DNA of 64,000 bases from an uncultured Candidatus Sumerlaeota bacterium (GTDB lineage Bacteria; Sumerlaeota; Sumerlaeia; MVZB01; JAJFLK01), in the NCBI GenBank assembly GCA_964598765.1, contig CAZRCZ010000003.1:152423-216422 (forward strand). The letters run 5' to 3'. The notes beneath the pieces are model-generated. The model ran no database searches and was not told the DNA's origin. It saw nothing but the letters and a program-made list of their open reading frames with translations. The number at the start of each line of letters is the position of its first letter. Position 1 is the stretch's first letter. This document shows, one piece after another, positions 2,646-48,817 of this stretch. The position numbers and the translations under genes were made by a program.

Positions 2646-2650
2646 TTTTT

Positions 2651-2685
2651 CCACCTCTCTGTGTTCTCTGTGTCTCTGTGGTGAA
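2651..2685. repeat. Solo arm of the octamer-hairpin family ('cacagaga' type) in the resB-ccsA spacer
   Basis: 'ccacctctctgtgttctctgtgtctctgtggtgaa' matches arms at 7744, 11092 and 32477. Confidence 0.75.
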
Positions 2686-2695
2686 TTTCTCTCCC

Positions 2696-4905: not shown

Positions 4906-6423
4906 CTACTCAAGCCCCGTCTCCGCCATTTCGACCGCCGCCAGCATACCCTTGGCTTTGATGACCGTCTCTTGAAATTCGTTTTCCGGAATGGAATCGG
5001 CGACCAATCCGGCGGCGGCTTGGACGTAAGCCGCGTCGTCCTTGATGAGAACCGTGCGGATCGTGATGCAGGTGTCGAGGTTGCCGTTGAATCCGAAATA
5101 ACCGCACGCGCCGCCGTAGGGACCGCGCCGCAGATTCTCCAGTTCGTCTATGATTTCCATCGCGCGGATTTTCGGCGCGCCGGTGAGCGTCCCGGCGGGA
5201 AATCCGGCTTGCGCCGCGTCGAAGCCGTCGCAATCGCTTTTCAATTTTCCCGTCACGTTGCTGACGATGTGCATGACGTGGGAATACCGCTCGATGGACA
5301 TGAGATCGTTGACGCGAACCGATCCGGCCTCGCTCACGCGCCCGCAATCATTGCGCCCCAAATCCACCAGCATGATGTGTTCGGCGCGCTCCTTGGGATC
5401 GGCGAGCAGTTCCTTTTCCAGCGCGGCGTCTTCTTCGGCGGTCGCGCCGCGCCTGCGCGTCCCGGCGATGGGCCGGATTGTCACCTCGCGGTCGTGAACC
5501 GTCACAAGAATTTCGGGACTTGAACCGGCAAGTTTTAGATCGCCATACTTCAAGTAAAACATATAGGGAGAGGGATTGATCGCCCGGAGCGCGCGATACA
5601 CGTCGAACGGATCGCCGTGAAACGGGCGGCTGAACCTCTGCGAGAGGACGATTTGAAACGCATCGCCGGCAAGAATGTATTCGCGCGCCTTCTCCACTCC
5701 CTTCTTGAATTGCTCCGGCGTCATGTTGGAAGCGACCTTGGAATTGCGGATCGCGGATTTCGGATCGCGGATGGGGGAGTCGGGGGCGTGAACGGGAGGA
5801 TAATCGGCGTGGGTGATGGCCTTTCCTTTCAGCCGTTCGGCGAGAACCTCGATTTTGTGGATCGCTTCCTTGTAAGCCGCTTCGGGCGAATCCTCGACGT
5901 GCGCATTGTGGATGATCAACACGCGACGCCGAACGTGATCGAACGCGACGACCGAATCGGCGATCATGAAGAAACTGTCGGGAAGCTGAAGATCGTCGGG
6001 ATTGCGGTCGGGAAGTTTTTCAAATCGCCGGACGAGATCGTAAGCCATGTATCCGACCGCGCCGCCAATGAACGGAGGCAAACGCGGATCGGCGACCGGA
6101 CGATACCGCCGCATGAAATCGCGCAGGAATGAAAAGACGTTCGGACAATCGCGGATGTCCTCCTCGTCGTTGCCGCGCATGATCATCACCTCGGAGCCGC
6201 GGCTCCGAATCACAATCGGCGGATTGCAACCCATGAAGGAATATCGTCCGACTCGCTCCCCCTGCTCGACGCTCTCGAGAAGAAATGCAAATTCCCCGTC
6301 GTCGAGTTTCTTGAACGCCGAAACCGGCGTCTCCATGTCGGCGAGCAATTCGGCCCAGACCGGAATCAGGTTTCCCTGCCTGCATTTTTCCTTGAAGGCG
6401 TTGAGATCGGGTTGGATGTTCAT
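4906..6423 (-). CDS. trpE: Anthranilate synthase component I
   Basis: 'LSQRFSRPF', 'GTLTGAPKIRAMEIIDELE' and 'RGPYGGACGYF' are chorismate-binding TrpE motifs. ATG at 6423 ('MNIQPDLNAF'); the ORF is open to 6483. Confidence 0.9.
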   Translation of the reverse strand: MNIQPDLNAFKEKCRQGNLIPVWAELLADMETPVSAFKKLDDGEFAFLLESVEQGERVGRYSFMGCNPPIVIRSRGSEVMIMRGNDEEDIRDCPNVFSFLRDFMRRYRPVADPRLPPFIGGAVGYMAYDLVRRFEKLPDRNPDDLQLPDSFFMIADSVVAFDHVRRRVLIIHNAHVEDSPEAAYKEAIHKIEVLAERLKGKAITHADYPPVHAPDSPIRDPKSAIRNSKVASNMTPEQFKKGVEKAREYILAGDAFQIVLSQRFSRPFHGDPFDVYRALRAINPSPYMFYLKYGDLKLAGSSPEILVTVHDREVTIRPIAGTRRRGATAEEDAALEKELLADPKERAEHIMLVDLGRNDCGRVSEAGSVRVNDLMSIERYSHVMHIVSNVTGKLKSDCDGFDAAQAGFPAGTLTGAPKIRAMEIIDELENLRRGPYGGACGYFGFNGNLDTCITIRTVLIKDDAAYVQAAAGLVADSIPENEFQETVIKAKGMLAAVEMAETGLE

Positions 6424-6501
6424 GCTTGTCCCCGCGCGAATGTGGACGGCGGGATTATCACACGCGGGGACGGGGATTCTCAATGCTTATGGATTTGGAG
6501 G

Positions 6502-6581
6502 ATTCAACGCAAGGACGCAAAGACGCAATGATGTTGTATGATCCGCTTTGCGTCCTTGCGCCTTGGCGACTTTGCGTTAAT
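6502..6581. repeat. Octamer-hairpin repeat ('cgcaagga' type)
   Basis: 'cgcaaggacgcaaag' (6508-6522) pairs perfectly with 'ctttgcgtccttgcg' (6546-6560). Ends read 'attcaacgc' and 'gcgttaat'. Confidence 0.85.
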
Positions 6582-6595
6582 GCCGAATCGCCTCC

Positions 6596-7873
6596 TCACT
6601 TCGCCCCGGCGACGGGCGGAACATCCGCGTTGGGGGTCAGCTTGGCGGGGAAGGTGCGTTGGGTCGCCTCGGTCCAGACGTTGCCGGTTCCGCGACCCGA
6701 CCAAAACAAATCGCCGCCGGGCGCGCTGAATTTCTTGAACCGCTCGTCAATTTTCGCCGGATCCTCGCCGTTCTTGGCGAGCGTGTTGTCGTGAATGAAA
6801 TTGCCGTCGGGATTCGGTTCGACGTCCAGCTTCGTCGCGTCGGGCAGAACGTCGGCCAAACCATACATGGCGATTCCGTAGTTGTTGTGGCCGGAAATTT
6901 CATTGCGCGTGATCTCGCTGTTGTCCGCCGCGTTGATGGCGATGCCGACGCCGGGACGGACCAGATTCACGATGTTCCCCGGCGGCGAAAGGTTGGGATA
7001 ATTGTTATTCAGCACGCGATTGTTGATGACGCGCGCGTTCGTGGCGACCTTGGAGGGAAGATTCGGAAGGAGCACGACCAAAATCCCCAGCGAATTCTCG
7101 TGGGTCGAGTTGTTGGCGAAAAGGACGTTGACGCAATTTTCCGCCTCGATGCCGATCGTGTTGTTGTAGGACTCGCAATTCTGCACGACGACGTCCTTGC
7201 ATTGTCCGGCGTAGATCGCCGCGTCCCAATCCCCTGACGCGACGCAATGCTCGACCAGCACGCCGTCGCACTCGACCGGATAGACGGCGTATTTGCCGGT
7301 GTTGTGCGCGACCAAATCGCGGAACGTCACGTTCTTCGCCTTGTTCACGACGACGCCGTTCCCTGTGTAATTGCGCATCTCAAATCCGCTGATCGTGAAG
7401 TTGTGTCCGGAGACCATCACCGCGTCGTTGAGTTTGTTTTCGCCGTCGAGCAGGGGGCGCTCGCCGTCGGCGACGATCCCGGCCAACTCGATGTTGTCCA
7501 GATCCACGACGACCGCTTCTTTGTAGGTTCCGGGCAAGACTTCAATGCGGTCGCCGGGGCGGCAACGGTCCACGGCGGATTGAATCGTCTGGCCGGGCGC
7601 GACGCGAAACGTCGCCCGAATGGCCGACGCGGTGGCCGAGGGCTGATCCGCCCGCCGTTCGGGATAATGCTTCGCGTTGCTTTCCACACGCGGGGCATCC
7701 TGCGCGAAAAGCGAAGGACAACAAGCGAGAAAGTAAAAACTTACCACGGAGGCACAGAGACACAGAGAAGAAACAGCGCTAAATACGGGTGTCCCTTTTT
7801 CTCCGCTTCCGCGCGTCTCCGCGTCGCAAATTCTTACTTTGGTGTCCTTGCGCCTTGGTGATGAAAAAATCAT
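6596..7873 (-). CDS. Secreted right-handed parallel beta-helix protein (NosD-like); paralogue of the C-terminal half of 11132-13558
   Basis: 'NYTGNGVVVNKAKNVTFRDLVAHNTGKYAVYPVECDGVLVEHCVASGDWDAAIYAGQCKDVVVQNCE' closely matches residues in the 808-aa fusion. Start uncertain: ATG at 7873, ORF open to 7948. The hydrophobic segment 'SSLCLCASVVSFYFLACC' precedes 'SLFAQD'. Confidence 0.7.
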   Translation of the reverse strand: MIFSSPRRKDTKVRICDAETRGSGEKGTPVFSAVSSLCLCASVVSFYFLACCPSLFAQDAPRVESNAKHYPERRADQPSATASAIRATFRVAPGQTIQSAVDRCRPGDRIEVLPGTYKEAVVVDLDNIELAGIVADGERPLLDGENKLNDAVMVSGHNFTISGFEMRNYTGNGVVVNKAKNVTFRDLVAHNTGKYAVYPVECDGVLVEHCVASGDWDAAIYAGQCKDVVVQNCESYNNTIGIEAENCVNVLFANNSTHENSLGILVVLLPNLPSKVATNARVINNRVLNNNYPNLSPPGNIVNLVRPGVGIAINAADNSEITRNEISGHNNYGIAMYGLADVLPDATKLDVEPNPDGNFIHDNTLAKNGEDPAKIDERFKKFSAPGGDLFWSGRGTGNVWTEATQRTFPAKLTPNADVPPVAGAK

Positions 7874-7907
7874 GGCATTTCCTCTCCGTGTCTTTGTGCC
7901 TCGGTGG
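7744..7907. repeat. Composite octamer-hairpin repeat over the 5' end of CDS 6596-7873
   Basis: 'ccacggaggcacagagacacagag' (7744-7767) pairs with 'ctccgtgtctttgtgcctcggtgg' (7884-7907), 21/24. Extra solo arms 'ccgcgcgtctccgcgtcgc' and 'ggtgtccttgcgccttggtg' lie in the loop. Confidence 0.8.
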
Positions 7908-7958
7908 CGATTCTTCATATTCATCATTCTTCCTTCTTTATTCTTCATCCCTCAACCT

Positions 7959-9479
7959 TCAGTAAGTCACGTCCGCCAAATCCCCCGCCCCCGCGCTGGC
8001 CGGCGCGACGCCGTTGACCAGATCAATTCCGGTCGTCTGGCGAAACCGATTACTCTCGCTCCGGTTATGGGTCGCGCTGAAGAAAATCAGCCCGGCTGTT
8101 CCGTTGCCTTCGCAGGAATTGCCCGTGATTGGATTGCCGGAGCCGCTGGCTCGAATCCCGTGGGAGAACGTTCCCCCCGTGTTCGCCGTGCAATGATTCT
8201 CAAGAACCCGGCAACCGGCGGCGAGAATGCCGGCAGAAAAGCCGACGCCCGCGGCTACCTGACCCGAACAAGTGTTGCTCCGGATGACGCAACCATTCGA
8301 ACCATAAATCCCGACGGCGATGCCGTCGGCGCCCGAGGCGTTGTTTGCCCGACAGGTGTTGTCGACGACAATGCATCCGCCTGCCGCCGAAATTCCGTAG
8401 GCGTTGCCGTTGCCGTTGGGACCTTCGTTGTTGGAATAGCAAACATTGGCTTCAACGGAACCGCCTCCGGCGGCGATGCCGACGCCATTGCTGTTGTTGG
8501 TGTTGCTGTTGCCATAGCAGACGTTGGCCCTAATCGTCCCTGAACCGCTTATGCCGATGGCGGGATAGAGGCCATTGGACGTGTTGTTCGCGCAGGTGTT
8601 ATTTTCGATAATGCCGCTGTTGACGTAAATTCCACAACCATTCCCTCCTGCCGAGCTGTTGGATTCGCAAAGATTATGGAGAACAACGGCGAAGCCGGTC
8701 GTGACGTAGATGCCATAAGCGGCTCCCGTCCCCGATGAAGATTGGTTGCCCCGGCAGACATTGTCGGCAAGCCGGCAACCGGAAACAGGCGCGTAAATTC
8801 CGCAGGCGATTCCTCCGGCTGAGACGTTGTTCTCGCAGAGATTTTTCTCGGCTTGGCATCCGGTTCCGCTGAGATAAACACCGTAGGCGGGAGCCGCTCC
8901 CGAGAAATTGTTCGCCGAGGCGACACATTCCTTCACCACGGAGTCTTGGCCGACTTGGATTCCCGCCGATCCGCCCGCCGTGTTGTTGCCGTTCGCGCGG
9001 CATTTTTCGACGATGGAATCGTTGCCGACGAGGATTCCCGAAGCGGCGCAACCTCGGACCTCCACGTTGCGCATCCGCGCGCGACCGCCCAGATAGATGC
9101 CGTTTTGCGAAAATCCCGCGATGGTTCCATCGAAGATCGTGATGCCGGTTTGAGCCGAACCGGAGATGCCGTCAACGGCGGCTCCACCGCCCCCCGTGAT
9201 CGTATGACCGCCCAAATCAATCGTAATGTCGTTCCACGTCAGCGTGATGGCGGCGATCCCCGCGTTCATCGTCACGTTGTCCACGACGCGGTAGCTCCCC
9301 GTCGCGCTGATGGTCGTCGTCGCGGCGGGGTTGAGTTTGAGGTCAATCGTGCCGTCACCGAAGGCGAAAGGCGAAAGGCGGATGGCGAAAAGCAAGCAAA
9401 TGACGAATGGCGAATGAAGAATGGCGAAATTGAAGGGGATTTTCTTGGCGTCTTGGCACGTTGGTGGTGAAATAAACAT
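7959..9479 (-). CDS. Secreted Cys/Asn/Gly-rich parallel beta-helix repeat protein, paralogue A
   Basis: Signal-like 'ILHSPFVICLLFAIRLSPFAFG', then about 13 coils of roughly 26 aa each carrying '(N)xCxxN'. Start at ATG 9479 by homology with the paralogue B N-terminus. An alternative ATG at 9530 overlaps the paralogue B stop by 4 nt. Confidence 0.75.
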   Translation of the reverse strand: MFISPPTCQDAKKIPFNFAILHSPFVICLLFAIRLSPFAFGDGTIDLKLNPAATTTISATGSYRVVDNVTMNAGIAAITLTWNDITIDLGGHTITGGGGAAVDGISGSAQTGITIFDGTIAGFSQNGIYLGGRARMRNVEVRGCAASGILVGNDSIVEKCRANGNNTAGGSAGIQVGQDSVVKECVASANNFSGAAPAYGVYLSGTGCQAEKNLCENNVSAGGIACGIYAPVSGCRLADNVCRGNQSSSGTGAAYGIYVTTGFAVVLHNLCESNSSAGGNGCGIYVNSGIIENNTCANNTSNGLYPAIGISGSGTIRANVCYGNSNTNNSNGVGIAAGGGSVEANVCYSNNEGPNGNGNAYGISAAGGCIVVDNTCRANNASGADGIAVGIYGSNGCVIRSNTCSGQVAAGVGFSAGILAAGCRVLENHCTANTGGTFSHGIRASGSGNPITGNSCEGNGTAGLIFFSATHNRSESNRFRQTTGIDLVNGVAPASAGAGDLADVTY

Positions 9480-9521
9480 CTTCATTGATTCCTTTCTTTT
9501 CGCCCTTCGCCTTTCGCCTTC
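9360..9521. repeat. Octamer/heptamer hairpin repeat ('ggcgaaag' type) straddling the start region of paralogue A
   Basis: 'gaaggcgaaaggcgaaaggcg' (9360-9380) is complementary to 'cgcccttcgcctttcgccttc' (9501-9521), with one mismatch. Confidence 0.75.
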
Positions 9522-9526
9522 ATCCT

Positions 9527-11065
9527 TCAATAAACCACGTCCGCCAAATCCCCCGCCCCCGAACTCGCCGGCGCGACGCCGTTGACCAAATCAATGCCCG
9601 TCGTTTCGCGCAAACGATTAGTTTCGCTTCGAGTGTTGGTGGAAACGAGGAAAAGAAGTCCTCCGGTTCCATTAACCTCACACGAATTGCCGGCGACGAA
9701 ATTGGCGGAGCCAATGATCCGAATGCCGTGGGAAATCGCGCCCCCCGTTGCGGTGTTGCTGACGCAATGGTTGTCAACGACCCGGCAATTGTTGAGAACG
9801 GCAACCCCTGCGGCAAAACCGGAGCCTTTGCCTTTATTTAACATGCAGATATTGTTCCGAATCGCGCAATCCGATCCGCCGTTGATCCCGGCGCCCGAGC
9901 CGTTCGTCCCCCAAGATTGGTTTCCCGTGCACGAATTGCCGACGACAACGCATCCGTCACCCACGTTGATCCCATCGCCAAACCCGCTGGCGTTGGGACC
10001 CCCTTCATTGCCGGAACATGAATTGGCTTCGACCGTGCAACCATCGGCGGTCGAGATGCCGTAACCAGACCCATTATTGGAGTTGACGTTGCCGGCGCAG
10101 TTATTGGCCCGAACGACGCATCCCAAGCCGGCGGAGATGCCGTAAGCGGGGGAATTCCCGGATGCCGTGTTGCCCGAGCAGGAGTTTTTTTCGAGGACGC
10201 AATATCCCCCCGCGACAATTCCATAAGCGTATCCGCCCAAGGAGGTGTTGTACTCGCAGACGTTGTGGAGAATAAGGGCCGAGTTGACCGCGTAGATTCC
10301 GTAGGCGGAGGTAGTCCCGGATGGCGATTGGTTCCCCGAGCAGAGATTGTCGGCAACGCGGCATCCGGCGTTGGGGGCGTAAATTCCGTAGGCGTTCCCG
10401 CCGGGGGAAACGTTGTTTTGGCAGACATTTCTCTCTGCGTCGCAACCCGTGCCGCCAAGATTGATGCCGTAGGTGTCAAGCGCTCCCGACGGATTGTTGG
10501 CCGACGCGACGCAATCCCTCACGAACGAATCTTGGCCGACTTGGATTCCGGCGGAGCCGCCAAGCATGTTGTTGCCGGTCGTCCGGCATTTCTCGACCAT
10601 GGAGTTGGCGCCGGCGAAAATCCCCGAACCGCCGCAACCCCGGACCTCCACCTCGCGCGCGCGCGCGCGGTTGCCCAAATAAACGCCGCGATTCGAAAAT
10701 CCAGCGATGGTCCCGCCGAAGATGGCGACATTGGTTTGAGCCGAGCCGGAAACGCCGTTGGCCGAAGCGCCGCCACCCCCCGTGATCGTGTGGCCGTTCA
10801 AATCAATCGTGACGTCGTTCGCCGTCAGGGTGATCGCCGAAATGCCCGCGTTCATCGTCACGTCATCCACGACGCGGTAGCTCCCCGACGCGCTGATCGT
10901 CGTCGTCGCGGCGGGATTGAGCTTGAGGTCTATCGTACCGTCCCCGAAGGCAAAGGGAGAATGGAGAAAGGCGAAGAGGAAAGAAAGAATGAAGGATGAG
11001 GGGTGAAGGATGAAATCGGAGATGGATTTCTTTGTGTCGTGGTGTCTTGATGGTGACAAATTCAT
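9527..11065 (-). CDS. Secreted Cys/Asn/Gly-rich parallel beta-helix repeat protein, paralogue B
   Basis: N-terminal roughly 230 aa and C-terminal roughly 60 aa are near-identical to paralogue A ('GDGTIDLKLNPAATTTISA.GSYRVVD', '...GVAPAS.GAGDLADV.Y'). Same '(N)xCxxN' coil pattern. Signal-like 'SFILSFLFAFLHSPFAFG'. Confidence 0.8.
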   Translation of the reverse strand: MNLSPSRHHDTKKSISDFILHPSSFILSFLFAFLHSPFAFGDGTIDLKLNPAATTTISASGSYRVVDDVTMNAGISAITLTANDVTIDLNGHTITGGGGASANGVSGSAQTNVAIFGGTIAGFSNRGVYLGNRARAREVEVRGCGGSGIFAGANSMVEKCRTTGNNMLGGSAGIQVGQDSFVRDCVASANNPSGALDTYGINLGGTGCDAERNVCQNNVSPGGNAYGIYAPNAGCRVADNLCSGNQSPSGTTSAYGIYAVNSALILHNVCEYNTSLGGYAYGIVAGGYCVLEKNSCSGNTASGNSPAYGISAGLGCVVRANNCAGNVNSNNGSGYGISTADGCTVEANSCSGNEGGPNASGFGDGINVGDGCVVVGNSCTGNQSWGTNGSGAGINGGSDCAIRNNICMLNKGKGSGFAAGVAVLNNCRVVDNHCVSNTATGGAISHGIRIIGSANFVAGNSCEVNGTGGLLFLVSTNTRSETNRLRETTGIDLVNGVAPASSGAGDLADVVY

Positions 11066-11091
11066 GAAAAAATCCTTATCTCTCTATGAAT

Positions 11092-11124
11092 CCCTCTCTG
11101 TGTCTCTGTGCCTCAGTGGTGAAT
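11092..11124. repeat. Solo arm of the octamer-hairpin family ('cacagaga' type)
   Basis: 'ccctctctgtgtctctgtgcctcagtggtgaat' lies between the stop of 11132-13558 and the start of paralogue B. Confidence 0.75.
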
Positions 11125-11131
11125 CTTTATC

Positions 11132-13558
11132 CTAAATTCCCCCCAGAACCGAAACCTCAAACGGCGCGAACCCCGATTGATCGGGTAGCTTTTCAGGATA
11201 GGTTTTGACGCCCGCCTGTTCACGCCAGCCGTTGCCGACGCCCGTGCCGTCCCAAGTCAAATCCGCGCCCGGAACGCCCATCGCCTTCAGAAGCGGCGCG
11301 GGATTCTTGCCGTTGTCGCGGTAGCTGTTGTCGTGGATCAGGTTGTTGTCGGAGTTCGGCTCGATGTCGAGTTCGTATTTTTCTTTCGACGCCGAGGCCG
11401 ACGTGAGGAAACTCATCAACGTAATGCCCGAGCTGTTGTTGCCGTAAATCTGGTTGCCAGTGACCTCGGTATTGTCCGCCGCCATGACGAGCATCCCCGT
11501 TCCGGGGGGCAGATAAGAAACGATGGAACCGGGCTTGGCAAAATTCGCCGTGTTGTTTTCCCAGACACGATTTCCGATCACCCGGCAATGGCTTCCGACC
11601 TTCGACGCGCCCGCCGGAAGGAGAAAAACCAAAATCCCGCCGGTGTTATGATGTGCGCTGTTGTTGGTGACGAGCGCGTTGACCGAATTTTCGATCTCCA
11701 ATCCCGCGACGTTGTGGAAGACCTCGTTGTTGCGAACGATGATGTCCCGACTCTGGCCGACGTAAATTCCGGCGTCCTTCGCCCCGCTGACGACGCATTC
11801 TTCAATCAACACGCCTTTGCACTCCACCGGATAAACCGCGTAAAGACCGGAATTTTCGACGACCAAATCGCGGAACACCACGTTGTTGGCTTTGTTGAAT
11901 ACGACGCCGTTGCCGGTGTAATTGCGAATGACAAATCCTTCCAGCGCGCAGTCGTTGCCGGTTCCCTGCACGGCGTCGGCCAGTGCATTCTGGCCGTCAA
12001 GGACCGCGCGTTCACCGTTGACCACCAAACCCGCGACCTCGATGCCGTCGCGGTCCATGGCCACCGTTTGATGATAGACGCCCGGCATGACTTCCACGCG
12101 GTCGCCGAATTGACTTCGATCCAGCGCGGCTTGGATGGATTGTCCGGGCATGACGCGCAACGTCGCCGAAACGGAGCGCGACCGCGGATGAAGGCGCGAC
12201 GGAACAATTCCTTGAGTTCCGGGGCCTTGCGTTCCCGGACTAAATCGCGCGAAGGCGGCTTGTCGCGCCGCTTGAAGCGCGCTCGGCGCTTCGGACAACG
12301 CCGAAGAACTTGGCGTGATGGACGACGTCGGAACCGATGCGGAAGCAATCTGAGTCAACGGCGGAGCCGGAATGGCTTTGGTCTTGACCTCGACCACAGG
12401 CAAACCCGAAGGAACTTTGACCGGTGGTTCGGGTTGGAGCGAGGTGTCGGTCAGCGCGTTCAAGAACGCAACCAAATCGCTCACTTCCGCAGGGGTGATG
12501 TCGAATTTGCCAATCTTGTCGTCAATGCCGGGGATCTGCTTTTCAAATTGGCGTCCGCCCCCTTTGGAGTAAAAGTCAATGACTTCCTCCAGCGTCTTGA
12601 ATCGCCCCGTGTGCATGTAAGGCGCGGTCAGCGCGACGTTGCGCAGAGTCGGGATTTTGAACGCGCCGTCGGGTCCCTGTCCCGGAACCTTGGCGCGTCC
12701 CGGATCGTGCTCCGCTTCGTCCGGCACGCCGATTACGCGGAAACTGCCGTCGGAAAAATTCGGAAGCGTGTGGCACTCGAAGCATCGCGTCTTGAGCGAA
12801 CGGAAAAGCGCTAGGCCGCGCTTTTCTTGTTCGTTCAGCGCGCCGGAATCTCCCGCCGCGTAGCGGTCATATTTGGAATTGAAGGAAAGAAGCGTCCGCT
12901 CGAACGCGGCAATCGCCAACGTGACGTGGCGGAACGTCACCGCTTCGTCGGCGCTTCCGCCGAACGTCTTCTGAAAAAGCTGGACGTATTCGGGAATCCC
13001 CTTGAGTTCCTTGATGAGTTCGTCGGCGTTTTGAGCCATTTCGTGTGCGTCCTGAATCGGACCCTCGGCTTGTTGTTCCAAATCCTTGGCGCGTCCGTCC
13101 CAGAATTGCAGGGGGCTGTAGGCGGAATTCCAGATCGTCGGCGCGCCGCGTTTCAAAACGTCGCCTCCGTTGCGCTCCGGTCCGACTCCTTTTCCCCCTT
13201 TGCCCATGCTGGTATTGCGTCCGTCTGTGAAGCCGTAATCGGGGTGATGGCAATGCGCGCAGGAAATCGTGTTTTCGCCGCTCAAGACCGGATCGAAATA
13301 GAGCAATTTGCCAAGCTCGACTTTTTCCGGCGTCATCGGATTTTCGGCGAGCGATTTCATCGCGGGAAAAGCTTGTTGCAAACCCGTCGCCCGCGTTTGT
13401 CCTTCGACGTAAGATTCGTTCGGAACGTAAACGCCATTCACGAAGCGGAAACCGGAAATCGGTTTGCCTTCCGGTTTGTCCGCCGCCGACGCGGAGTTGG
13501 CCACTGCCGCAACGCACACTGATCCGAGAAAAATAAAAAATGGAAAACGTCTTGTCAT
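11132..13558 (-). CDS. Di-haem cytochrome c peroxidase/MauG-family domain fused to a NosD-like parallel beta-helix domain
   Basis: Signal peptide 'FPFFIFLGSVCVAAVANSASA'. Two CxxCH sites ('CAHCH', 'CFECH') and 'FKIPTLRNVALTAPYMHTG' are typical of bacterial CCP/MauG. A Pro/Ser-rich linker follows, then a beta-helix half paralogous to 6596-7873. Confidence 0.85.
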   Translation of the reverse strand: MTRRFPFFIFLGSVCVAAVANSASAADKPEGKPISGFRFVNGVYVPNESYVEGQTRATGLQQAFPAMKSLAENPMTPEKVELGKLLYFDPVLSGENTISCAHCHHPDYGFTDGRNTSMGKGGKGVGPERNGGDVLKRGAPTIWNSAYSPLQFWDGRAKDLEQQAEGPIQDAHEMAQNADELIKELKGIPEYVQLFQKTFGGSADEAVTFRHVTLAIAAFERTLLSFNSKYDRYAAGDSGALNEQEKRGLALFRSLKTRCFECHTLPNFSDGSFRVIGVPDEAEHDPGRAKVPGQGPDGAFKIPTLRNVALTAPYMHTGRFKTLEEVIDFYSKGGGRQFEKQIPGIDDKIGKFDITPAEVSDLVAFLNALTDTSLQPEPPVKVPSGLPVVEVKTKAIPAPPLTQIASASVPTSSITPSSSALSEAPSALQAARQAAFARFSPGTQGPGTQGIVPSRLHPRSRSVSATLRVMPGQSIQAALDRSQFGDRVEVMPGVYHQTVAMDRDGIEVAGLVVNGERAVLDGQNALADAVQGTGNDCALEGFVIRNYTGNGVVFNKANNVVFRDLVVENSGLYAVYPVECKGVLIEECVVSGAKDAGIYVGQSRDIIVRNNEVFHNVAGLEIENSVNALVTNNSAHHNTGGILVFLLPAGASKVGSHCRVIGNRVWENNTANFAKPGSIVSYLPPGTGMLVMAADNTEVTGNQIYGNNSSGITLMSFLTSASASKEKYELDIEPNSDNNLIHDNSYRDNGKNPAPLLKAMGVPGADLTWDGTGVGNGWREQAGVKTYPEKLPDQSGFAPFEVSVLGGI

Positions 13559-13633
13559 GGAAGAGACGCCCCTTTCGAAAGAATGAAGAGAGGACCGAGC
13601 GTTCTAAAAAGCCGCCGCCTTGCCTCTCTAAAA

Positions 13634-14839
13634 TTACCGGAAGCGAGGGAGGGGAGCAAGGGGGATTTGATCGGCGCGAGCTGACGTCGCAAGATTCGCA
13701 ATCCCACGCGATTGTGGATCAGAGCCAACGAGCAAGTCGGCTCCGGCGCCGAATAGGGACGGAGGCCGCGAGAAAGGTTTTTGGAAGGCCGCCGTCTCGA
13801 CCAAGGCCAGCGCCCGCAGGAGGCGCTTCAGTTGATCGTCTCCCGATCCCGGGCCGATTGCGCCGGCAGGAGTCCAGAGCGCGACTTCATAGCCCGCTTC
13901 GATGAAATACTTGGCGAGCGAAGCGGCGACGCTGACGCCGTTTTCGAACGCTTCCAACTCATCGGTCGTCGGGTTTGACGCCACGCGCGGCGCGAAGACA
14001 ATCCGCAATCGGCGCGCCTCCTCCCGTTCGTCCTCCCGCAATTTGATCCCCGTCCCTTTGGCCGAAAGTTTCCAGTGAATCATCCGCGCCGGATCGCCCG
14101 GAACGTAATCCCGAATCGCGTAGAGGCTTCCGCCGTGTCCCTTGAGGGGAGATTCCAATTCACCCAGTTGAGGATCAAACCGCTTGAGGAGGGGCTGAAC
14201 GGGCAACAATCGGGGATAAATCAGCGCCTTGTCAGGCACATCCCATCGGACGGTGCGATCCAGAAACCCGAAAGGAAATCCCGATCGGCAATGGAGGGAG
14301 CGGAATTCAACCCATCCTCGGCGGGGAAATTGAACTTCAACGTTTTGTCGCGATGCACGACGGGGCGGAATCGCGGAAAAGAAAGCGGAATAACGGGGCA
14401 AGGGAGTGTCCGCTTCCCCCTCGGCCACTGACAAACCATACGATGCCATCCATCGTTTACGGTTGGAAAGCTCGACCTGCATTTCGGTCGCGGCTCCGGC
14501 GAAAATTTCGGAGGAAAGTTTTCTACGCGCGACGATTCCCGTCATGTTGATCCAGCTCAGCAGGAGCGTTGCCAGCCAAAAGCTCAGCAGGGTGGAGACC
14601 ATAAGATAGAGGAGATTGGTTCCGGTGCTGACGGCGGCCATCCCGATGGCCGTCATCAGCAGGGCGACCCCCAATCCCATGCGCGTAACACGCCCTCCGT
14701 GGCGCGGTCTCCAGCCGAACCATGGAAAACGCCGCCGCCGCTTGGAAGGGGCGGGCAAGGCTTGATTGCGTCGGTTCAACAATTTAACCTCAAGGTTGTG
14801 GCTCGTCGCAGTGTCCCGCTTTCTTTCTCGTTCCTCCAT
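13634..14839 (-). CDS. DUF58 domain protein (vWA-like, usually MoxR-associated)
   Basis: 'LYAIRDYVPGDPARMIHWKLSAKGTGIKLREDE' is the DUF58 signature, and N-terminal TM helices 'LGVALLMTAIGMAAVSTGTNLLYLM' are present. Start uncertain; anywhere from 14839 down to an internal TTG is possible. Confidence 0.7.
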   Translation of the reverse strand: MEERERKRDTATSHNLEVKLLNRRNQALPAPSKRRRRFPWFGWRPRHGGRVTRMGLGVALLMTAIGMAAVSTGTNLLYLMVSTLLSFWLATLLLSWINMTGIVARRKLSSEIFAGAATEMQVELSNRKRWMASYGLSVAEGEADTPLPRYSAFFSAIPPRRASRQNVEVQFPRRGWVEFRSLHCRSGFPFGFLDRTVRWDVPDKALIYPRLLPVQPLLKRFDPQLGELESPLKGHGGSLYAIRDYVPGDPARMIHWKLSAKGTGIKLREDEREEARRLRIVFAPRVASNPTTDELEAFENGVSVAASLAKYFIEAGYEVALWTPAGAIGPGSGDDQLKRLLRALALVETAAFQKPFSRPPSLFGAGADLLVGSDPQSRGIANLATSARADQIPLAPLPRFR

Positions 14840-15871
14840 TTGATTATCACATTGTCCGCGGTCCGTCCATCGGCGGGACAGGAAACGCTACAACGGGGCG
14901 TGGCGCCCTCGACGCCCCAAGAGGTCGCGCTGAAAATCGGTTATCTGATTTCGGGATCCGATTTGGATCCGGTGCGCCCGGTCCTTGAAGAGCTTCGCCG
15001 CGATTTGCTGAGCGATTCCAAGGTCCTCTCGGCGTTGAAAGCCGGAAATTATCAGGACATCTGGCTCCGTCCCTGCGACGCGCCGCAAGACATGATCCAG
15101 CGGTTGAAAGGAATTGAATTCGATCTGGCGTTTGCCACCTCGGTCATCTATGCGCGCCAATTTCGTCCGCGCGCCGATCAGCCCGATCAGTTTCAGGAAG
15201 TTCCCTATGAGCCGGTCCTGCAATTTCATTATCTCGACGGCGACGTGCCCGATCCCAAGGGTAACGGCGTTTTTCGGCGGGGCGTCGTCTTTATTGGTCC
15301 GGGCAGTTCGCTCTGGAGTGTCGGACAACCCTCCGCCGAACAAATGCGGCGCGAGTTGGAGACGCAGTGGCTGGCCGTCTCCGATTCTTATTCGGCGGCG
15401 GGGTATATTTATTCGCGGCTGAAGATCATGGACGAATTCGGCGAGGTTCGCCTGCGCGGTCCGATGTTCTGCAAATCGGGAGGCGAGGCGTTCAAGCACG
15501 TCGTTTCCGGGCTGACGGGCATCGGCGCGTGCGACTCGCGGATTTTGGAAGGAGCGGCGGGAAAGCCTGCCGCGCGGGGAAAATTCTACCGCGAACTTTT
15601 CCGCACCGATCCCATTCCGACCGATCCGATTTTGCTCCGGCGCGATCATTTGCCGCAGACTTCTCCACTGGGACGGGAACTCAAGGCGGCGATTCAATCT
15701 TTTTTCAACGCCGCCAAGTCACCGGTCGCCGGACTTCGCGTCGAGACCGCCGACCGCCGGGCGTTTGAGTTGACGGCGCGCGCCTTGGAAAAATTCGATC
15801 GCGCCGAGCAGGAGGCATCCAAAATTCCGGCCAATCTTTCCGCTTCTCCGAATGGAGCGCGGCGACCGTGA
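14798..15871 (+). CDS. PhnD-like periplasmic substrate-binding protein (phosphonate/phosphite ABC SBP fold)
   Basis: 'KIGYLISGSD...GIEFDLAFATSVIYARQ' resembles PhnD-family SBPs. GTG at 14798 gives the signal-like 'MARRSVPLSFSFLHLIITLSAV'; the ORF is open from GTG 14699. The stop overlaps the kinase start (ATGA). Confidence 0.5.
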   Translation: MARRSVPLSFSFLHLIITLSAVRPSAGQETLQRGVAPSTPQEVALKIGYLISGSDLDPVRPVLEELRRDLLSDSKVLSALKAGNYQDIWLRPCDAPQDMIQRLKGIEFDLAFATSVIYARQFRPRADQPDQFQEVPYEPVLQFHYLDGDVPDPKGNGVFRRGVVFIGPGSSLWSVGQPSAEQMRRELETQWLAVSDSYSAAGYIYSRLKIMDEFGEVRLRGPMFCKSGGEAFKHVVSGLTGIGACDSRILEGAAGKPAARGKFYRELFRTDPIPTDPILLRRDHLPQTSPLGRELKAAIQSFFNAAKSPVAGLRVETADRRAFELTARALEKFDRAEQEASKIPANLSASPNGARRP

Positions 15872-17100
15872 AATCGTTCAATCGTCCCCTGACGCTCTTT
15901 TCGCTTCTCGTTTTGCTCGTGACGATTTCGATCCTCTTTTGGCTTCGCTCGCGCACCGCGCGCGGATTGGAGCAGAGCGTCGCCAACGTCGTTGCCTCCT
16001 TCAATCCTCCGCAATCCGTTCTGGGGGAGCCGACGTTTCCCCTTGCCAATTTCGAACTCGCCGAAACGCTGGTCCAGAACGCCAAGCGCAATCCGTTTAT
16101 CCGGAACGTAATCGTCACGAAATCGCTGGCGGGGGCTTCGGGGTCGGAAGCTGAAGCGCCCATCGTCCCGTTTGATCTGCTCGCAAGCGCGGGACCTCGT
16201 TGGCGAGACCCTTTGACCGCTATGCGGGTGCTTCCCTTACAATCGGGCGGCAACATCTATGGTCATCTCTATCTCGATCTGGATCGCTCGGCGATTCGGA
16301 GCGTGAATTGGGCCATCGGCTCGGCGTCGGTCGCGCTGGCGACAACCCTGCTCATGCTCCTCGCCCGGCTCTTTTCACAGGAGACGACGATCCAGCGCGT
16401 CGGTTCCGAATTGGATCAACGCAAGCGCGAACTGATTCGTCTCGAACGCCTTGCGCTGGCCGGTCAACTCACCGCCAATTTGATCCACGACCTGAAAAAA
16501 CCAGTCTTGAGCGTCCGGCACAGTTTGGAGGATTGGGAGCGGAAACCGGATAAGGAACAGTTTCCATTGACCGAGACGCGGGATCAAATCGCGCTCTTCT
16601 TTCAAATGCTGAATGACACGGGGTTGGAGCGGTTCGTCAAATCCGACCGCGCGCAGGAGGAATACGTGGACCTCAACGAAATTCTTCGATCCTCGCTCAA
16701 GCTGGTCCACTACGAGCGCGGCGCGGTTCAGGTCGTCGAGCGATTCGCGCCGGATCTTCCTTCGGTCCTCGCCCAACCGTTTCGGCTCGTGCAGGTTTTT
16801 TCCAATTTGATCCTCAACGCCTACCAAGCCATGCGCGGGAAGGGAACGCTGACGTTGGAGACGCTTCCCGCTCAGGGAGGCGTCGAAATCCTCGTAACCG
16901 ACGACGGACCGGGGATCAAGCCCGAAATTTTGGCTTCCGTTTTTGATCCCTTTTTCACCACCAAGCCCGAATCGGAAGGCTCCGGCCTCGGACTTGCAAT
17001 CAGCCGTCTGATCATTGAGGAACTCAAGGGGAAGATTGAAGTGGACTCCAAGGAAAGGGGACCGACGACGTTTCGCGTCCGGTTGCCTGCGGAGCGGTGA
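15868..17100 (+). CDS. Sensor histidine kinase
   Basis: H-box 'LIHDLKKP', N-box 'NLILNAYQAM', G1 'DDGPGI', G2 'GSGLGLAI', and an N-terminal TM segment. Confidence 0.85.
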   Translation: MKSFNRPLTLFSLLVLLVTISILFWLRSRTARGLEQSVANVVASFNPPQSVLGEPTFPLANFELAETLVQNAKRNPFIRNVIVTKSLAGASGSEAEAPIVPFDLLASAGPRWRDPLTAMRVLPLQSGGNIYGHLYLDLDRSAIRSVNWAIGSASVALATTLLMLLARLFSQETTIQRVGSELDQRKRELIRLERLALAGQLTANLIHDLKKPVLSVRHSLEDWERKPDKEQFPLTETRDQIALFFQMLNDTGLERFVKSDRAQEEYVDLNEILRSSLKLVHYERGAVQVVERFAPDLPSVLAQPFRLVQVFSNLILNAYQAMRGKGTLTLETLPAQGGVEILVTDDGPGIKPEILASVFDPFFTTKPESEGSGLGLAISRLIIEELKGKIEVDSKERGPTTFRVRLPAER

Positions 17101-48689: not shown

Positions 48690-48757
48690 ATCTGGTTTTG
48701 CTGTAGATTGCGTCGCATTTTATTCCTTGGTGTCGTGGTGCCTTGGTGGTGAAAAAT
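48647..48757. repeat. Octamer-hairpin repeat ('caccaaga' type) overlapping the 3' end of the GT4 gene
   Basis: 'aaattcaccaccaagacaccaagtcgccaaga' faces 'ccttggtgtcgtggtgccttggtggtgaaaaat'. Confidence 0.9.
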
Positions 48758-48817
48758 CCAAAAATCGTAATCCTCTCGCCTTTTGAATGAGCTTGTGTAA
48801 AAAGTTGGAACAGCAAG

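What the first reader, a model, noticed from the sequence alone, without database searches (positions are those of the whole stretch)
6596..14839. Candidate undescribed secreted system: DUF58, di-haem MauG/CCP fused to beta-helix, two Cys-ladder beta-solenoids, stand-alone beta-helix paralogue
Five co-directional minus-strand genes are separated by gaps of about 45-85 nt or by a 4-nt overlap. They are DUF58 (13634-14839), the di-haem peroxidase/beta-helix fusion (11132-13558), two tandem Cys/Asn/Gly-rich beta-helix paralogues (9527-11065 and 7959-9479), and a beta-helix protein (6596-7873). The last protein is a close paralogue of the C-terminal half of the fusion, sharing blocks such as 'NYTGNGVV.NKA.NV.FRDLV..N.G.YAVYPVEC.GVL.E.CV.SG..DA.IY.GQ..D..V.N.E'. 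All four downstream proteins have signal-like N-termini. From established knowledge, di-haem enzymes of this superfamily (MauG, MbnH) oxidatively modify a partner protein encoded next to them. NosD-type beta-helices act as periplasmic maturation factors, and DUF58 proteins are vWA-like assembly factors. My inference is that the haem domain may mature or cross-link the neighbouring Cys-rich solenoids, or a bound cofactor or polymer. I cannot match this gene combination to any named system.
Basis: partly seen in the sequence, partly recalled or inferred. Interest (0 to 1): 0.75.

Follow-up and report, generated by a model that had tools for sequence, protein, structure and literature searches.

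The report
Di-haem peroxidase/beta-helix fusion, unrelated neighbours
The five genes are real, but they are not one system: only the MauG-type di-haem/beta-helix fusion and its stand-alone beta-helix paralogue travel together in other genomes, while the two Cys-rich solenoids and the DUF58 gene are local additions.

Summary
All five minus-strand genes, their spacing and both paralogies are confirmed. The five-gene "system" is not.

- **Fusion:** the di-haem/beta-helix fusion is a widespread, uncharacterised, mostly self-contained gene. In 80 metagenome loci none had a solenoid or a detectable DUF58 within 10 kb, and no neighbour family recurred in more than 10 loci.
- **Stand-alone paralogue:** this distinct orthogroup lies directly downstream of a fusion in six other loci. 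The window alone has 3.2 kb, the two solenoid genes, between them.
- **Solenoids:** the family is rare and nearest to Candidatus Sumerlaeota. In one Sumerlaeota MAG that has both genes, solenoid and fusion sit on different contigs.
- **Haem domain:** it is MauG-type. Tyr330 aligns with MauG Tyr294 and is invariant in 120 fusions, and the bCCP distal His is absent. It scores below the curated MauG and MbnH cut-offs.
- **Beta-helix domain (TIGR03805):** elsewhere it is fused to SO2930 di-haem cytochromes, class I cytochrome c or cupredoxins. That marks it as a redox-coupled periplasmic module.

Most likely the haem domain oxidises its own tethered beta-helix and the paralogue, or a ligand bound to them, not the solenoids. 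The substrate is unknown.

The parts
11132..13558 (-). Secreted fusion protein, 808 aa. Sec signal (aa 1-25), MauG-type di-haem CCP_MauG domain (about aa 60-385), Ala/Arg/Pro/Ser-rich linker (about aa 386-461), TIGR03805 right-handed beta-helix (aa 462-808).
   Evidence: Pfam and NCBIfam hits. 120 full-length homologues with the same architecture at 50-70% identity. The beta-helix domain model has pLDDT 94.3. Linker length ranges from 19 to 121 aa, median 67.
13247..13261 (-). First haem-binding motif, C100-A-H-C103-H104 (peroxide-reactive, 5-coordinate-type haem).
   Evidence: Present in 119 of 120 fusions; the remaining row has a gap. The bCCP distal His position is Lys120 here and is never His in 120 fusions.
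12770..12784 (-). Second haem-binding motif, C259-F-E-C262-H263 (6-coordinate / E haem).
   Evidence: Invariant in 120 of 120 fusions.
12569..12571 (-). Tyr330, the predicted axial Tyr ligand of the second haem (the MauG-type signature).
   Evidence: Aligns with MauG Tyr294 and with the equivalent Tyr of MbnH 6E1C. It sits 14 residues after His316 of the PYMH motif, the position where bCCPs carry the Met ligand (for the motif alignment; the +14 Met position is from my own knowledge). Invariant in 120 of 120 fusions.
6596..7873 (-). Stand-alone secreted TIGR03805 beta-helix paralogue (425 aa from the ATG at 7873). It belongs to a distinct orthogroup that normally sits immediately downstream of the fusion.
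   Evidence: 51% identity to fusion aa 462-799. Orthologues lie directly downstream of a fusion in L001, L003, L089, L119, L166 and L167. It keeps 69 of 102 fusion-invariant columns and has group-specific S603C, R609Q, N611C and D770S.
9527..11065 (-). Solenoid A: secreted, very regular Cys/Asn/Gly-rich right-handed beta-helix (512 aa). A lineage-restricted insertion between the fusion and its paralogue.
   Evidence: Only 7 other proteins above 37% identity, one of them solenoid B itself, among 5.8 billion. AF2 model pLDDT 87, all-beta with a coil period of about 27-28 residues. PDB fold matches are only generic, TM 0.3 or less for the top 40.
7959..9479 (-). Solenoid B: tandem paralogue of solenoid A (506 aa, 61% identity).
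13634..14839 (-). DUF58 membrane protein (401 aa). An upstream neighbour that is not conserved next to the fusion.
   Evidence: Pfam DUF58, 30.6 bits. Absent from all 5 Pfam-annotated fusion loci (L001, L002, L003, L164, L165) and from 80 metagenome loci by phmmer.
7725..7958 (-). Structured, repeat-derived 5' leader of the stand-alone gene. Inverted copies of GAGGCACARAGACAC (7888-7902 and 7749-7763) bracket the start codon.
   Evidence: RNA fold -80.7 kcal/mol, z=-4.6. The N-terminus differs from the orthologues.
9350..9540 (-). Structured 5' leader of solenoid B. A 40-nt inverted repeat (9360-9399 / 9489-9528) encloses the start codon.
   Evidence: RNA fold -64.9 kcal/mol, z=-4.2.
10940..11131 (-). 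5' leader of solenoid A. It carries the same GAGGCACAGAGACAC repeat (11100-11114) and the TCACCA..GACAC..AAAG element just after the ATG.
   Evidence: The fold is weaker, z=-2.4.
6508..6560 (-). Hairpin (CGCAAGGACGCAAAG / CTTTGCGTCCTTGCG) just downstream of the stand-alone gene's stop codon and ahead of trpE. REP-like or terminator-like end of the gene set.
   Evidence: Read directly from the sequence. It aligns with the repeat family.

Best explanation
The region is a composite, not one system.

(1) Conserved core. The core is a two-gene module. The first gene is a secreted fusion of a MauG-type (His/Tyr-ligated) di-haem enzyme, tethered by a flexible linker to a TIGR03805 right-handed beta-helix. 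The second gene is a stand-alone TIGR03805 paralogue.

(2) Local additions. In this lineage a tandem pair of secreted, highly regular beta-solenoid genes, each with a repeat-derived structured 5' leader, has been inserted between the two core genes. The insertion also remodelled the 5' end of the paralogue. The DUF58 gene upstream is an unrelated neighbour.

(3) Proposed mechanism of the core (inferred). The 5-coordinate haem reacts with H2O2. The His/Tyr di-haem pair stores two oxidising equivalents, as in MauG, MbnH and BthA. These equivalents pass through the inter-haem Trp153 and surface aromatic residues to the beta-helix module held next to it, and in trans to the paralogue. There they do one of two things. 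They may install a protein-derived or metal-dependent redox site among the invariant Tyr, Trp, Asp, Glu and His residues. Or they may oxidise a ligand bound in the beta-helix groove.

The TIGR03805 beta-helix is itself a redox-coupled periplasmic module. In other lineages it is fused to pure electron carriers instead.
For: Shown here:
- **Architecture and conservation.** 120 fusions with the same architecture. Both CxxCH motifs, Trp153, Gln163, Glu173 and Tyr330 are conserved in all of them; the first CxxCH is present in 119 of 120, the remaining row being a gap.
- **MauG-type signature.** Tyr330 aligns with MauG Tyr294 and with the MbnH Tyr. The bCCP distal His is replaced. His/Tyr against His/Met ligation is the published discriminator of MauG-type from canonical bCcPs (PMC11892367; PMC6405878).
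- **Self-contained gene.** No neighbour family occurs in more than 10 of 80 loci.
- **Paralogue linkage.** The paralogue is directly downstream of a fusion in L001, L003, L089, L119, L166 and L167. It keeps the family-wide invariants Tyr576, Asp595, Tyr599, Glu623 and Asn624.
- **Redox coupling of the beta-helix.** Of 146 representative TIGR03805-like clusters, 14 are fused to CCP_MauG, 10 to TIGR03806 SO2930 di-haem cytochrome, 7 to class I cytochrome c and 3 to cupredoxin.
- **Solenoids and DUF58 unlinked elsewhere.**
- **Insertion signature.** The shared leader repeat sits at the 5' ends of solenoid A, solenoid B and the paralogue. The paralogue's N-terminus differs from its orthologues.

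Inferred, not shown: formation of a bis-Fe(IV)-type oxidant, the direction and target of electron or hole transfer, and the identity of any cofactor or substrate.
Against: - No experimental data exist for any member of the fusion family (literature searches).
- The haem domain scores below the curated MauG and MbnH cut-offs. Overall it is most similar to canonical bCCPs (E=1e-53), so simple peroxide reduction is not excluded.
- Most fusions, about 95% of the sampled loci, lack the paralogue. The paralogue is therefore an accessory, not an obligate partner.
- Some TIGR03805 proteins have no redox partner nearby, for example Pontibacter locus L168.
- The beta-helix fold resembles carbohydrate epimerases, lyases and hydrolases (AlgE4, IFTase, tailspikes; TM 0.5-0.6). 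None of these is redox-active.
- Co-transcription of the five window genes cannot be excluded. The gaps are short and no convincing terminator was found inside the set.
Confidence: 0.55

Rival explanations
1. All five genes form one secreted system in which the di-haem domain matures or cross-links the two Cys-rich solenoids, with DUF58 as an assembly factor.
For: The genes are co-directional with short gaps and no clear internal terminator. All are exported or membrane proteins. MauG-type enzymes do modify partner proteins (PMC11951088).
Against: - None of 80 fusion loci carries a solenoid or a DUF58.
- None of 77 loci with solenoid relatives carries a haem, TIGR03805 or DUF58 gene.
- Sumerlaeota MAG GCA_964586185.1 has the fusion and a solenoid on different contigs with unrelated flanks.
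- Solenoid relatives form tandem arrays of their own, for example eight in a row in L011.
- The Cys ladders are replaced by Val/Ile or Ser/Gly in relatives. The single Trp is not conserved.
Confidence: 0.07
2. The fusion is an ordinary periplasmic H2O2-detoxifying cytochrome c peroxidase. Its beta-helix merely anchors it to a cell-surface glycan or polymer, and the paralogue is a second binding protein.
For: The best PDB sequence matches are canonical bCCPs (3HQ6, 2C1U; E about 1e-53). The peroxide pocket residues Gln163 and Glu173 are conserved. The beta-helix fold resembles carbohydrate-binding or carbohydrate-active proteins.
Against: - The Met ligand that defines canonical bCCPs is replaced by an invariant Tyr, and the activation-switch distal His is absent (PMC11892367).
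- The same beta-helix is fused elsewhere to plain electron carriers: cytochrome c, cupredoxin and SO2930 di-haem cytochrome. That is hard to explain by anchoring alone.
Confidence: 0.15
3. The beta-helix is the catalytic domain of a periplasmic dehydrogenase or oxidase. The fused di-haem domain is simply its steady-state electron acceptor, with electrons ending on H2O2 or the respiratory chain. There is no maturation step.
For: Sister subfamilies carry cytochrome c, SO2930 di-haem or cupredoxin domains at the C-terminus. The fusion is permanent and 1:1, joined by a flexible linker. Polar residues are invariant on the beta-helix across the whole family.
Against: No cofactor-binding motif is known or detected in the beta-helix. 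All structural neighbours are non-redox carbohydrate enzymes. His/Tyr di-haem enzymes characterised so far act as oxidants of protein residues rather than as electron sinks (PMC11892367, PMC11951088).
Confidence: 0.2

Closest known systems
MbnH (PDB 6E1C) with its substrate MbnP
   Same: A periplasmic di-haem enzyme of the CCP_MauG superfamily. It gives the best match over the C-terminal haem region (E=6e-17), including the 'LEEVID(F/I)YS.GG' segment that holds the Tyr ligand. It gives the full-length match aa 64-386 (E=9e-44). MbnH oxidises a Trp of a separately encoded partner to kynurenine (PMC11951088).
   Different: The score against the MbnH family model is 245.6 bits, below the cut-off of 362.85. 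No MbnP-like gene is nearby. The candidate partner here is a covalently tethered beta-helix of a different fold.
MauG with pre-methylamine dehydrogenase (then amicyanin and cytochrome c)
   Same: His/Tyr ligation (Tyr330 aligns with Tyr294), an inter-haem Trp and no distal His. The set of partners seen fused to TIGR03805 across lineages is a MauG-type di-haem, a cupredoxin and cytochrome c. This mirrors the MauG, amicyanin and cytochrome c set that serves the TTQ enzyme (the parallel is my own inference).
   Different: TIGR03791 scores 230 bits, below the cut-off of 444. PDB E-value is only 5e-27. There are no mau genes, and the partner fold is a beta-helix rather than the MADH beta subunit.
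BthA (PDB 6NX0)
   Same: An orphan MauG-type di-haem enzyme with Tyr ligation and an unknown substrate (PMC6405878).
   Different: Only a distant match (E=1e-15). BthA has no fused beta-helix.
Canonical bacterial cytochrome c peroxidases (e.g. Geobacter 3HQ6, Paracoccus 2C1U)
   Same: Highest overall sequence similarity (E about 1e-53). They share the peroxide pocket, the Trp and the PY(M/F)H motif.
   Different: The His/Met E-haem ligand is replaced by Tyr, the distal His is absent, and an extra beta-helix domain is present.
TIGR03805 beta_helix_1 with TIGR03806 SO2930-family di-haem cytochrome c (uncharacterised)
   Same: Both window beta-helices score above the TIGR03805 cut-off. The family is physically coupled to c-type haem proteins, as shown by the fusion proteins P0318, P0334 and P0360.
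   Different: The haem partner here is a CCP_MauG-type enzyme at the N-terminus, not an SO2930-type cytochrome at the C-terminus. No function has been published for either combination.
NosD (N2O reductase maturation; PDB 7OSF and related)
   Same: A periplasmic right-handed beta-helix. Pfam NosD hits and partial TIGR04247 hits cover the N-terminal coils.
   Different: TIGR04247 scores 47-52 bits against a cut-off of 300. No NosF/NosY/NosL-type genes are adjacent. NosD is not among the top 50 fold matches of the TIGR03805 domain.
CASH-type beta-helix carbohydrate enzymes (AlgE4 A-module 2PYG, AlgG, inulin fructotransferase, PL6 lyases, tailspikes)
   Same: They are the best structural neighbours of both the TIGR03805 domain (TM 0.5-0.6) and the solenoids (TM 0.3 or less).
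   Different: Identity is 9-18%, there are no sequence-family hits, and catalytic motifs were not compared. For the solenoids the resemblance does not go beyond the generic fold.

Membership tests
MauG-type (His/Tyr) branch of the bCCP_MauG superfamily | Two c-type haem motifs (CxxCH) within a CCP_MauG fold. | tested here: met
   PF03150, E=1e-56. C100xxCH and C259xxCH are conserved across 120 fusions.
MauG-type (His/Tyr) branch of the bCCP_MauG superfamily | A Tyr in place of Met as the axial ligand of the second (E / 6-coordinate) haem. | tested here: met
   Tyr330 aligns with MauG Tyr294 and the MbnH Tyr. Invariant in 120 of 120 fusions. The criterion is taken from PMC11892367 and PMC6405878. 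This is a sequence alignment only; ligation was not observed.
MauG-type (His/Tyr) branch of the bCCP_MauG superfamily | Formation of a bis-Fe(IV) (or equivalent) state with H2O2, and oxidation of a protein substrate. | not testable with these tools
   Requires purified protein and spectroscopy.
MauG proper (TIGR03791 equivalog) | Score above the curated cut-off, and a mau gene context. | tested here: not met
   230.4 bits against a cut-off of 443.85. No mau genes are among the neighbours.
MbnH family (TIGR04039) | Score above the curated cut-off, and an adjacent MbnP-type partner. | tested here: not met
   245.6 bits against a cut-off of 362.85. No MbnP-like neighbour is present.
Canonical bacterial cytochrome c peroxidase | His/Met-ligated high-potential haem, and (in most members) a distal His on the peroxidatic haem. 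| tested here: not met
   Tyr sits at the Met position. Lys, Arg, Phe, Val or Leu sit at the distal-His position.
TIGR03805 beta_helix_1 | Score above the curated cut-off for the domain. | tested here: met
   Fusion 240.7 bits and stand-alone protein 194.6 bits, against a cut-off of 141.5.
NosD (TIGR04247) | Score above the curated cut-off, and NosFY/NosL/NosZ context. | tested here: not met
   47.3 and 51.7 bits against a cut-off of 300. No nos genes are adjacent.
DUF58 (PF01882) | Pfam gathering score. | tested here: met
   30.6 bits against 23.4.
DUF58 in its usual MoxR-type operon | An adjacent MoxR-type AAA ATPase or vWA/transglutaminase-like partner. That this is the usual context is my own recollection. 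| tested here: not met
   The immediate neighbours are the fusion on one side and a divergent PhnD-like binding protein plus histidine kinase on the other. The rest of the window was not scanned for MoxR.
Characterised polysaccharide lyase/hydrolase families (for the solenoids) | A sequence-family match, or a close fold match with catalytic residues. | tested here: inconclusive
   No NCBIfam hit and only a weak Pfam Beta_helix hit. Foldseek gives E of 8e-6 or weaker, TM 0.3 or less and 8-14% identity. Catalytic residues could not be compared.

The most novel reading that the evidence does not exclude
TIGR03805 beta-helix proteins are an unrecognised class of periplasmic redox enzymes. Their active site would be a protein-derived (quinone-like or cross-linked Tyr/Trp/Cys) or metal cofactor, built from the family-invariant Tyr576, Asp595, Tyr599 and Glu623 plus Trp769. 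In the window's subfamily a tethered MauG-type di-haem domain would install or drive that site in cis, and do the same for the stand-alone paralogue in trans. Sister subfamilies would hand electrons to fused cupredoxin, class I cytochrome c or SO2930 di-haem domains. This would be a beta-helix counterpart of the methylamine dehydrogenase, MauG, amicyanin and cytochrome c arrangement.
Probability: 0.15. Interest if true: 0.8.

Novelty: new variant of a known kind. Interest (0 to 1): 0.45.

Why it matters
Only a few MauG-type di-haem enzymes have a known substrate (MauG, MbnH). BthA and most of the superfamily are orphans. This fusion family spans Verrucomicrobiota, Planctomycetota, Hydrogenedentota, Armatimonadota, Chloroflexota and Sumerlaeota. 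It physically links such an enzyme to a candidate partner, so the substrate question can be tested directly with one recombinant protein.

The same beta-helix is fused to four unrelated redox modules. That points to redox chemistry on a fold so far known only from carbohydrate enzymes and from NosD.

For genome annotation, the result warns against reading tight co-directional clusters as systems. Here a lineage-specific gene pair was inserted into a conserved two-gene module.

Tried and rejected
- **Five-gene conservation: rejected.** See the neighbourhood screens.
- **Recovering the contigs of the closest solenoid homologues (P0123, P0124, P0126).** The look-ups returned only a 1.6-kb contig or nothing. 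As weak indirect evidence, no fusion or paralogue hit or 50 has their contig lengths (22,839 and 180,431).
- **Solenoids as a known enzyme, adhesin or defence protein.** No NCBIfam or PADLOC hits. The fold search gave only generic matches.
- **Cys ladder as disulfide or cross-link sites.** Disfavoured by Cys to Val/Ile and Cys to Ser/Gly exchanges, and by unpaired Cys in relatives.
- **A conserved accessory gene for the fusion, such as an MbnP-like substrate.** None was found.
- **My recollection that TIGR03805 genes pair with TIGR03806 genes.** The one stand-alone case examined (Pontibacter, L168) had no cytochrome nearby. Fusion proteins of the two domains do exist.
- **Rfam scan of 6000-16000.** No hit.
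- **Promoter and terminator consensus scans.** At chance level and uninformative.
- **Literature.** No paper on TIGR03805, TIGR03806 or this fusion.
- **Cluster-member look-up for organism names.** Gave none.

Full report
**Observation.** The five minus-strand ORFs exist at the stated coordinates.
- Pfam and NCBIfam identify DUF58 at 13634-14839.
- The 808-aa protein at 11132-13558 has CCP_MauG at aa 77-238 and TIGR03805 beta_helix_1 at aa 475-756.
- The two proteins at 9527-11065 and 7959-9479 give only weak Beta_helix hits.
- The protein at 6596-7873 is a TIGR03805 protein.
- The stand-alone protein is 51% identical to fusion residues 462-799. The two solenoids are 61% identical to each other and are unrelated to the TIGR03805 proteins.
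- All four downstream proteins have N-terminal hydrophobic segments compatible with signal peptides. DUF58 has an internal hydrophobic segment at aa 56-70.
- The flanks are trpE downstream (4906-6483) and, divergently upstream, a PhnD-like binding protein and a histidine kinase.

**Is it one system? The fusion's neighbourhood.** The fusion architecture is common. All of the best 120 hits, at 50-100% identity, carry both domains. Where a source names the organism, they come from Verrucomicrobiota, Planctomycetota (Pirellulales), Hydrogenedentota and Armatimonadota. Further fusion-architecture hits add Chloroflexota (Anaerolineales) and Acidobacteriota.

I examined gene neighbourhoods in five Pfam-annotated loci (L001, L002, L003, L164, L165; L004 is a second contig with the same genes as L003). 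I also screened 80 metagenome loci with phmmer, using the window's own proteins as queries.
- None contains a solenoid relative or a detectable DUF58.
- Clustering of all neighbouring ORFs found no family present in more than 10 of 80 loci.

The fusion is therefore essentially a self-contained gene.

**Is it one system? The solenoids' neighbourhood.** The solenoid family is very rare. Seven other proteins exceed 37% identity among 5.8 billion, and one of them is solenoid B itself. The nearest genome is a Candidatus Sumerlaeota MAG.
- None of the 77 genome loci with closer or more distant solenoid relatives has a haem, TIGR03805 or DUF58 gene within 10 kb. The relatives tend instead to form tandem arrays of their own, for example eight in a row in L011.
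- The decisive case is MAG GCA_964586185.1. It encodes a 69%-identical fusion on contig 84, flanked by a hypothetical gene and a BNR/Asp-box repeat protein. It encodes a 48%-identical solenoid on contig 30, flanked by unrelated genes.

**What is conserved.** The stand-alone beta-helix belongs to a distinct orthogroup.
- It keeps 69 of 102 fusion-invariant columns and has its own fixed substitutions: S603C, R609Q, N611C, D770S and L572K.
- In every further locus where I could see its context, it lies immediately downstream of a fusion: L001, L003, L089, L119, L166 and L167.
- Only about 5% of sampled fusions have it, so it is an accessory of one subclade.
- The window is the only case with anything between the two genes. 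The intervening 3.2 kb holds the two solenoid genes.

**Signs of an insertion.** A short repeat (TCACCACCAAGGCGC.AGGACACCAAAG) follows the start codons of solenoid A, solenoid B and the stand-alone gene. It also occurs in an unrelated intergenic region near 48.7 kb and, as a hairpin, just after the stand-alone gene's stop codon. The stand-alone gene's orthologues have a plain 25-residue signal peptide. The window's copy instead has a long solenoid-type leader. I read this as insertion of the solenoid cassette into the two-gene module, with remodelling of the downstream gene's 5' end. This is an inference.

**The haem domain.** By overall sequence it is closest to canonical bCCPs (E about 1e-53), then MbnH (9e-44), MauG (5e-27) and BthA (1e-15). 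Its C-terminal part is closest to MbnH and MauG.
- The residue 14 positions after His316 of the PYMH motif is Tyr330. Canonical bCCPs carry the Met ligand at that position.
- Tyr330 aligns with MauG Tyr294 and is invariant in 120 fusions.
- The distal His of activatable bCCPs is Lys here and is never His in the family.
- Trp153 (in the QFWDGR motif), Gln163 and Glu173 are invariant.
- His/Tyr against His/Met ligation is the published discriminator between MauG-type and canonical enzymes. The MauG-type enzymes studied form bis-Fe(IV)-type oxidants and modify protein residues (PMC11892367, PMC6405878, PMC11951088).
- The domain is nevertheless neither MauG nor MbnH by the curated thresholds.

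**The beta-helix domain.** The AF2 model is confident (pLDDT 94.3). Its nearest solved folds are carbohydrate epimerases, lyases, fructotransferases and tailspikes, with TM 0.5-0.6 and 11-18% identity among the top 50 matches. That gives fold-level information only.

Domain architecture across the family is more informative.
- An exhaustive HMMER search found 429 representative clusters at E of 1e-30 or better.
- Among the top 146, 14 carry an N-terminal CCP_MauG domain. Ten carry a C-terminal TIGR03806 SO2930-family di-haem cytochrome, 7 a C-terminal class I cytochrome c, and 3 a C-terminal cupredoxin.
- Repeated, independent fusion to four unrelated periplasmic redox modules indicates that the TIGR03805 beta-helix takes part in electron transfer.
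- This supports a model in which the haem domain acts on its own tethered beta-helix and on the paralogue. The linker is 19-121 residues and Ala/Arg/Pro/Ser-rich.
- Whether that action is a one-time maturation or steady-state catalysis cannot be decided here.

**The solenoids.** The AF2 model (pLDDT 87) is an uninterrupted beta-helix with a coil period of about 27-28 residues. Fold matches are generic, with TM 0.3 or less for the top 40.
- The two Cys ladders have C-x6-C spacing in each coil. One is replaced by Val or Ile and the other by Ser, Gly or Asn in relatives. Unpaired Cys are tolerated. They therefore look like packing positions rather than obligate redox sites.
- The single Trp is not conserved.
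- The family shares a conserved, disordered C-terminal tail that ends in an aromatic residue (for example GAGDLADVTY). Related endings occur in many distant members. This may be a sorting signal.
- I regard the solenoids as lineage-specific secreted or surface proteins of unknown role.

**Comparison with known systems, and verdict.** The core works most like MbnH with MbnP or MauG with preMADH, but with the candidate partner fused. It is not a member of either curated family, and no function is published for TIGR03805 or TIGR03806.
- The five-gene system is not supported.
- The fusion plus paralogue is a real, conserved, uncharacterised module.
- I rate it a new variant of a known kind, with moderate interest.

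Noticed in passing
window 7725-7958, 9350-9540, 10940-11131 (minus strand): The 5' regions of the stand-alone gene, solenoid B and solenoid A can each form a long-range RNA stem. The stem pairs a purine-rich upstream arm with the signal-peptide coding region and encloses the start codon. Energies are -80.7, -64.9 and -43.9 kcal/mol, with z-scores of -4.6, -4.2 and -2.4. This could be translational control, or simply a REP-like repeat.
   Followed up: partly
window 11038-11058, 9451-9471, 7843-7866, about 48740-48770, 6508-6560: A short dispersed repeat (TCACCACCAAGGCGC.AGGACACCAAAG) occurs both in intergenic DNA and as the first codons of three genes, where it encodes 'SPPRHKDTKK'. The same peptide leader is present in the solenoid homologues P0123, P0124 and P0126 from other assemblies.
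   Followed up: partly
window 918-2783 (-) and 2696-4543 (-): The system II cytochrome c biogenesis genes CcsA (PF01578) and ResB (PF05140) lie on the same strand just beyond trpE, about 2 kb downstream of the haem-protein cluster.
   Followed up: partly
solenoid family: window 7959-8030 and 9527-9600; loci L008, L010-L014, L017: The family shares a C-terminal tail that ends in an aromatic residue (GAGDLADVTY, TGFTNVTY, GDLANVSF, SPYTNQSF). The tail is predicted to be disordered and may be a secretion or sorting signal. Family members form tandem arrays of up to 8 genes in MAG MFD01231.bin.1.77 and in Sumerlaeota MAGs.
   Followed up: partly
proteins P0286, P0290, P0294; P0267, P0299 and others; P0318, P0334, P0360: The TIGR03805 beta-helix is fused to a cupredoxin, to class I cytochrome c, or to a TIGR03806 SO2930-type di-haem cytochrome in other lineages.
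   Followed up: yes
L087, L088, L166: In these loci the fusion gene appears split into separate CCP_MauG and beta-helix ORFs. This could be a frameshift, an assembly error or a genuinely split gene. It shows that the two halves can also be encoded as adjacent genes.
   Followed up: no
L164 11985-13514: In the Sumerlaeota MAG the gene downstream of the fusion encodes a secreted BNR/Asp-box (SxDxGxTW) repeat protein rather than a beta-helix paralogue.
   Followed up: no
window 14699-17100 (+): A PhnD-like periplasmic binding protein and a histidine kinase have overlapping stop and start codons (15868-15871). They are transcribed divergently from DUF58, and the annotated 5' ends of DUF58 and the PhnD-like ORF overlap (14699-14839).
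   Followed up: no
whole window: The nearest relatives of both the solenoid (48%) and the fusion (69%) are in Candidatus Sumerlaeota MAG GCA_964586185.1, and a 67%-identical paralogue is annotated as Sumerlaeota (P0161).
   Followed up: partly
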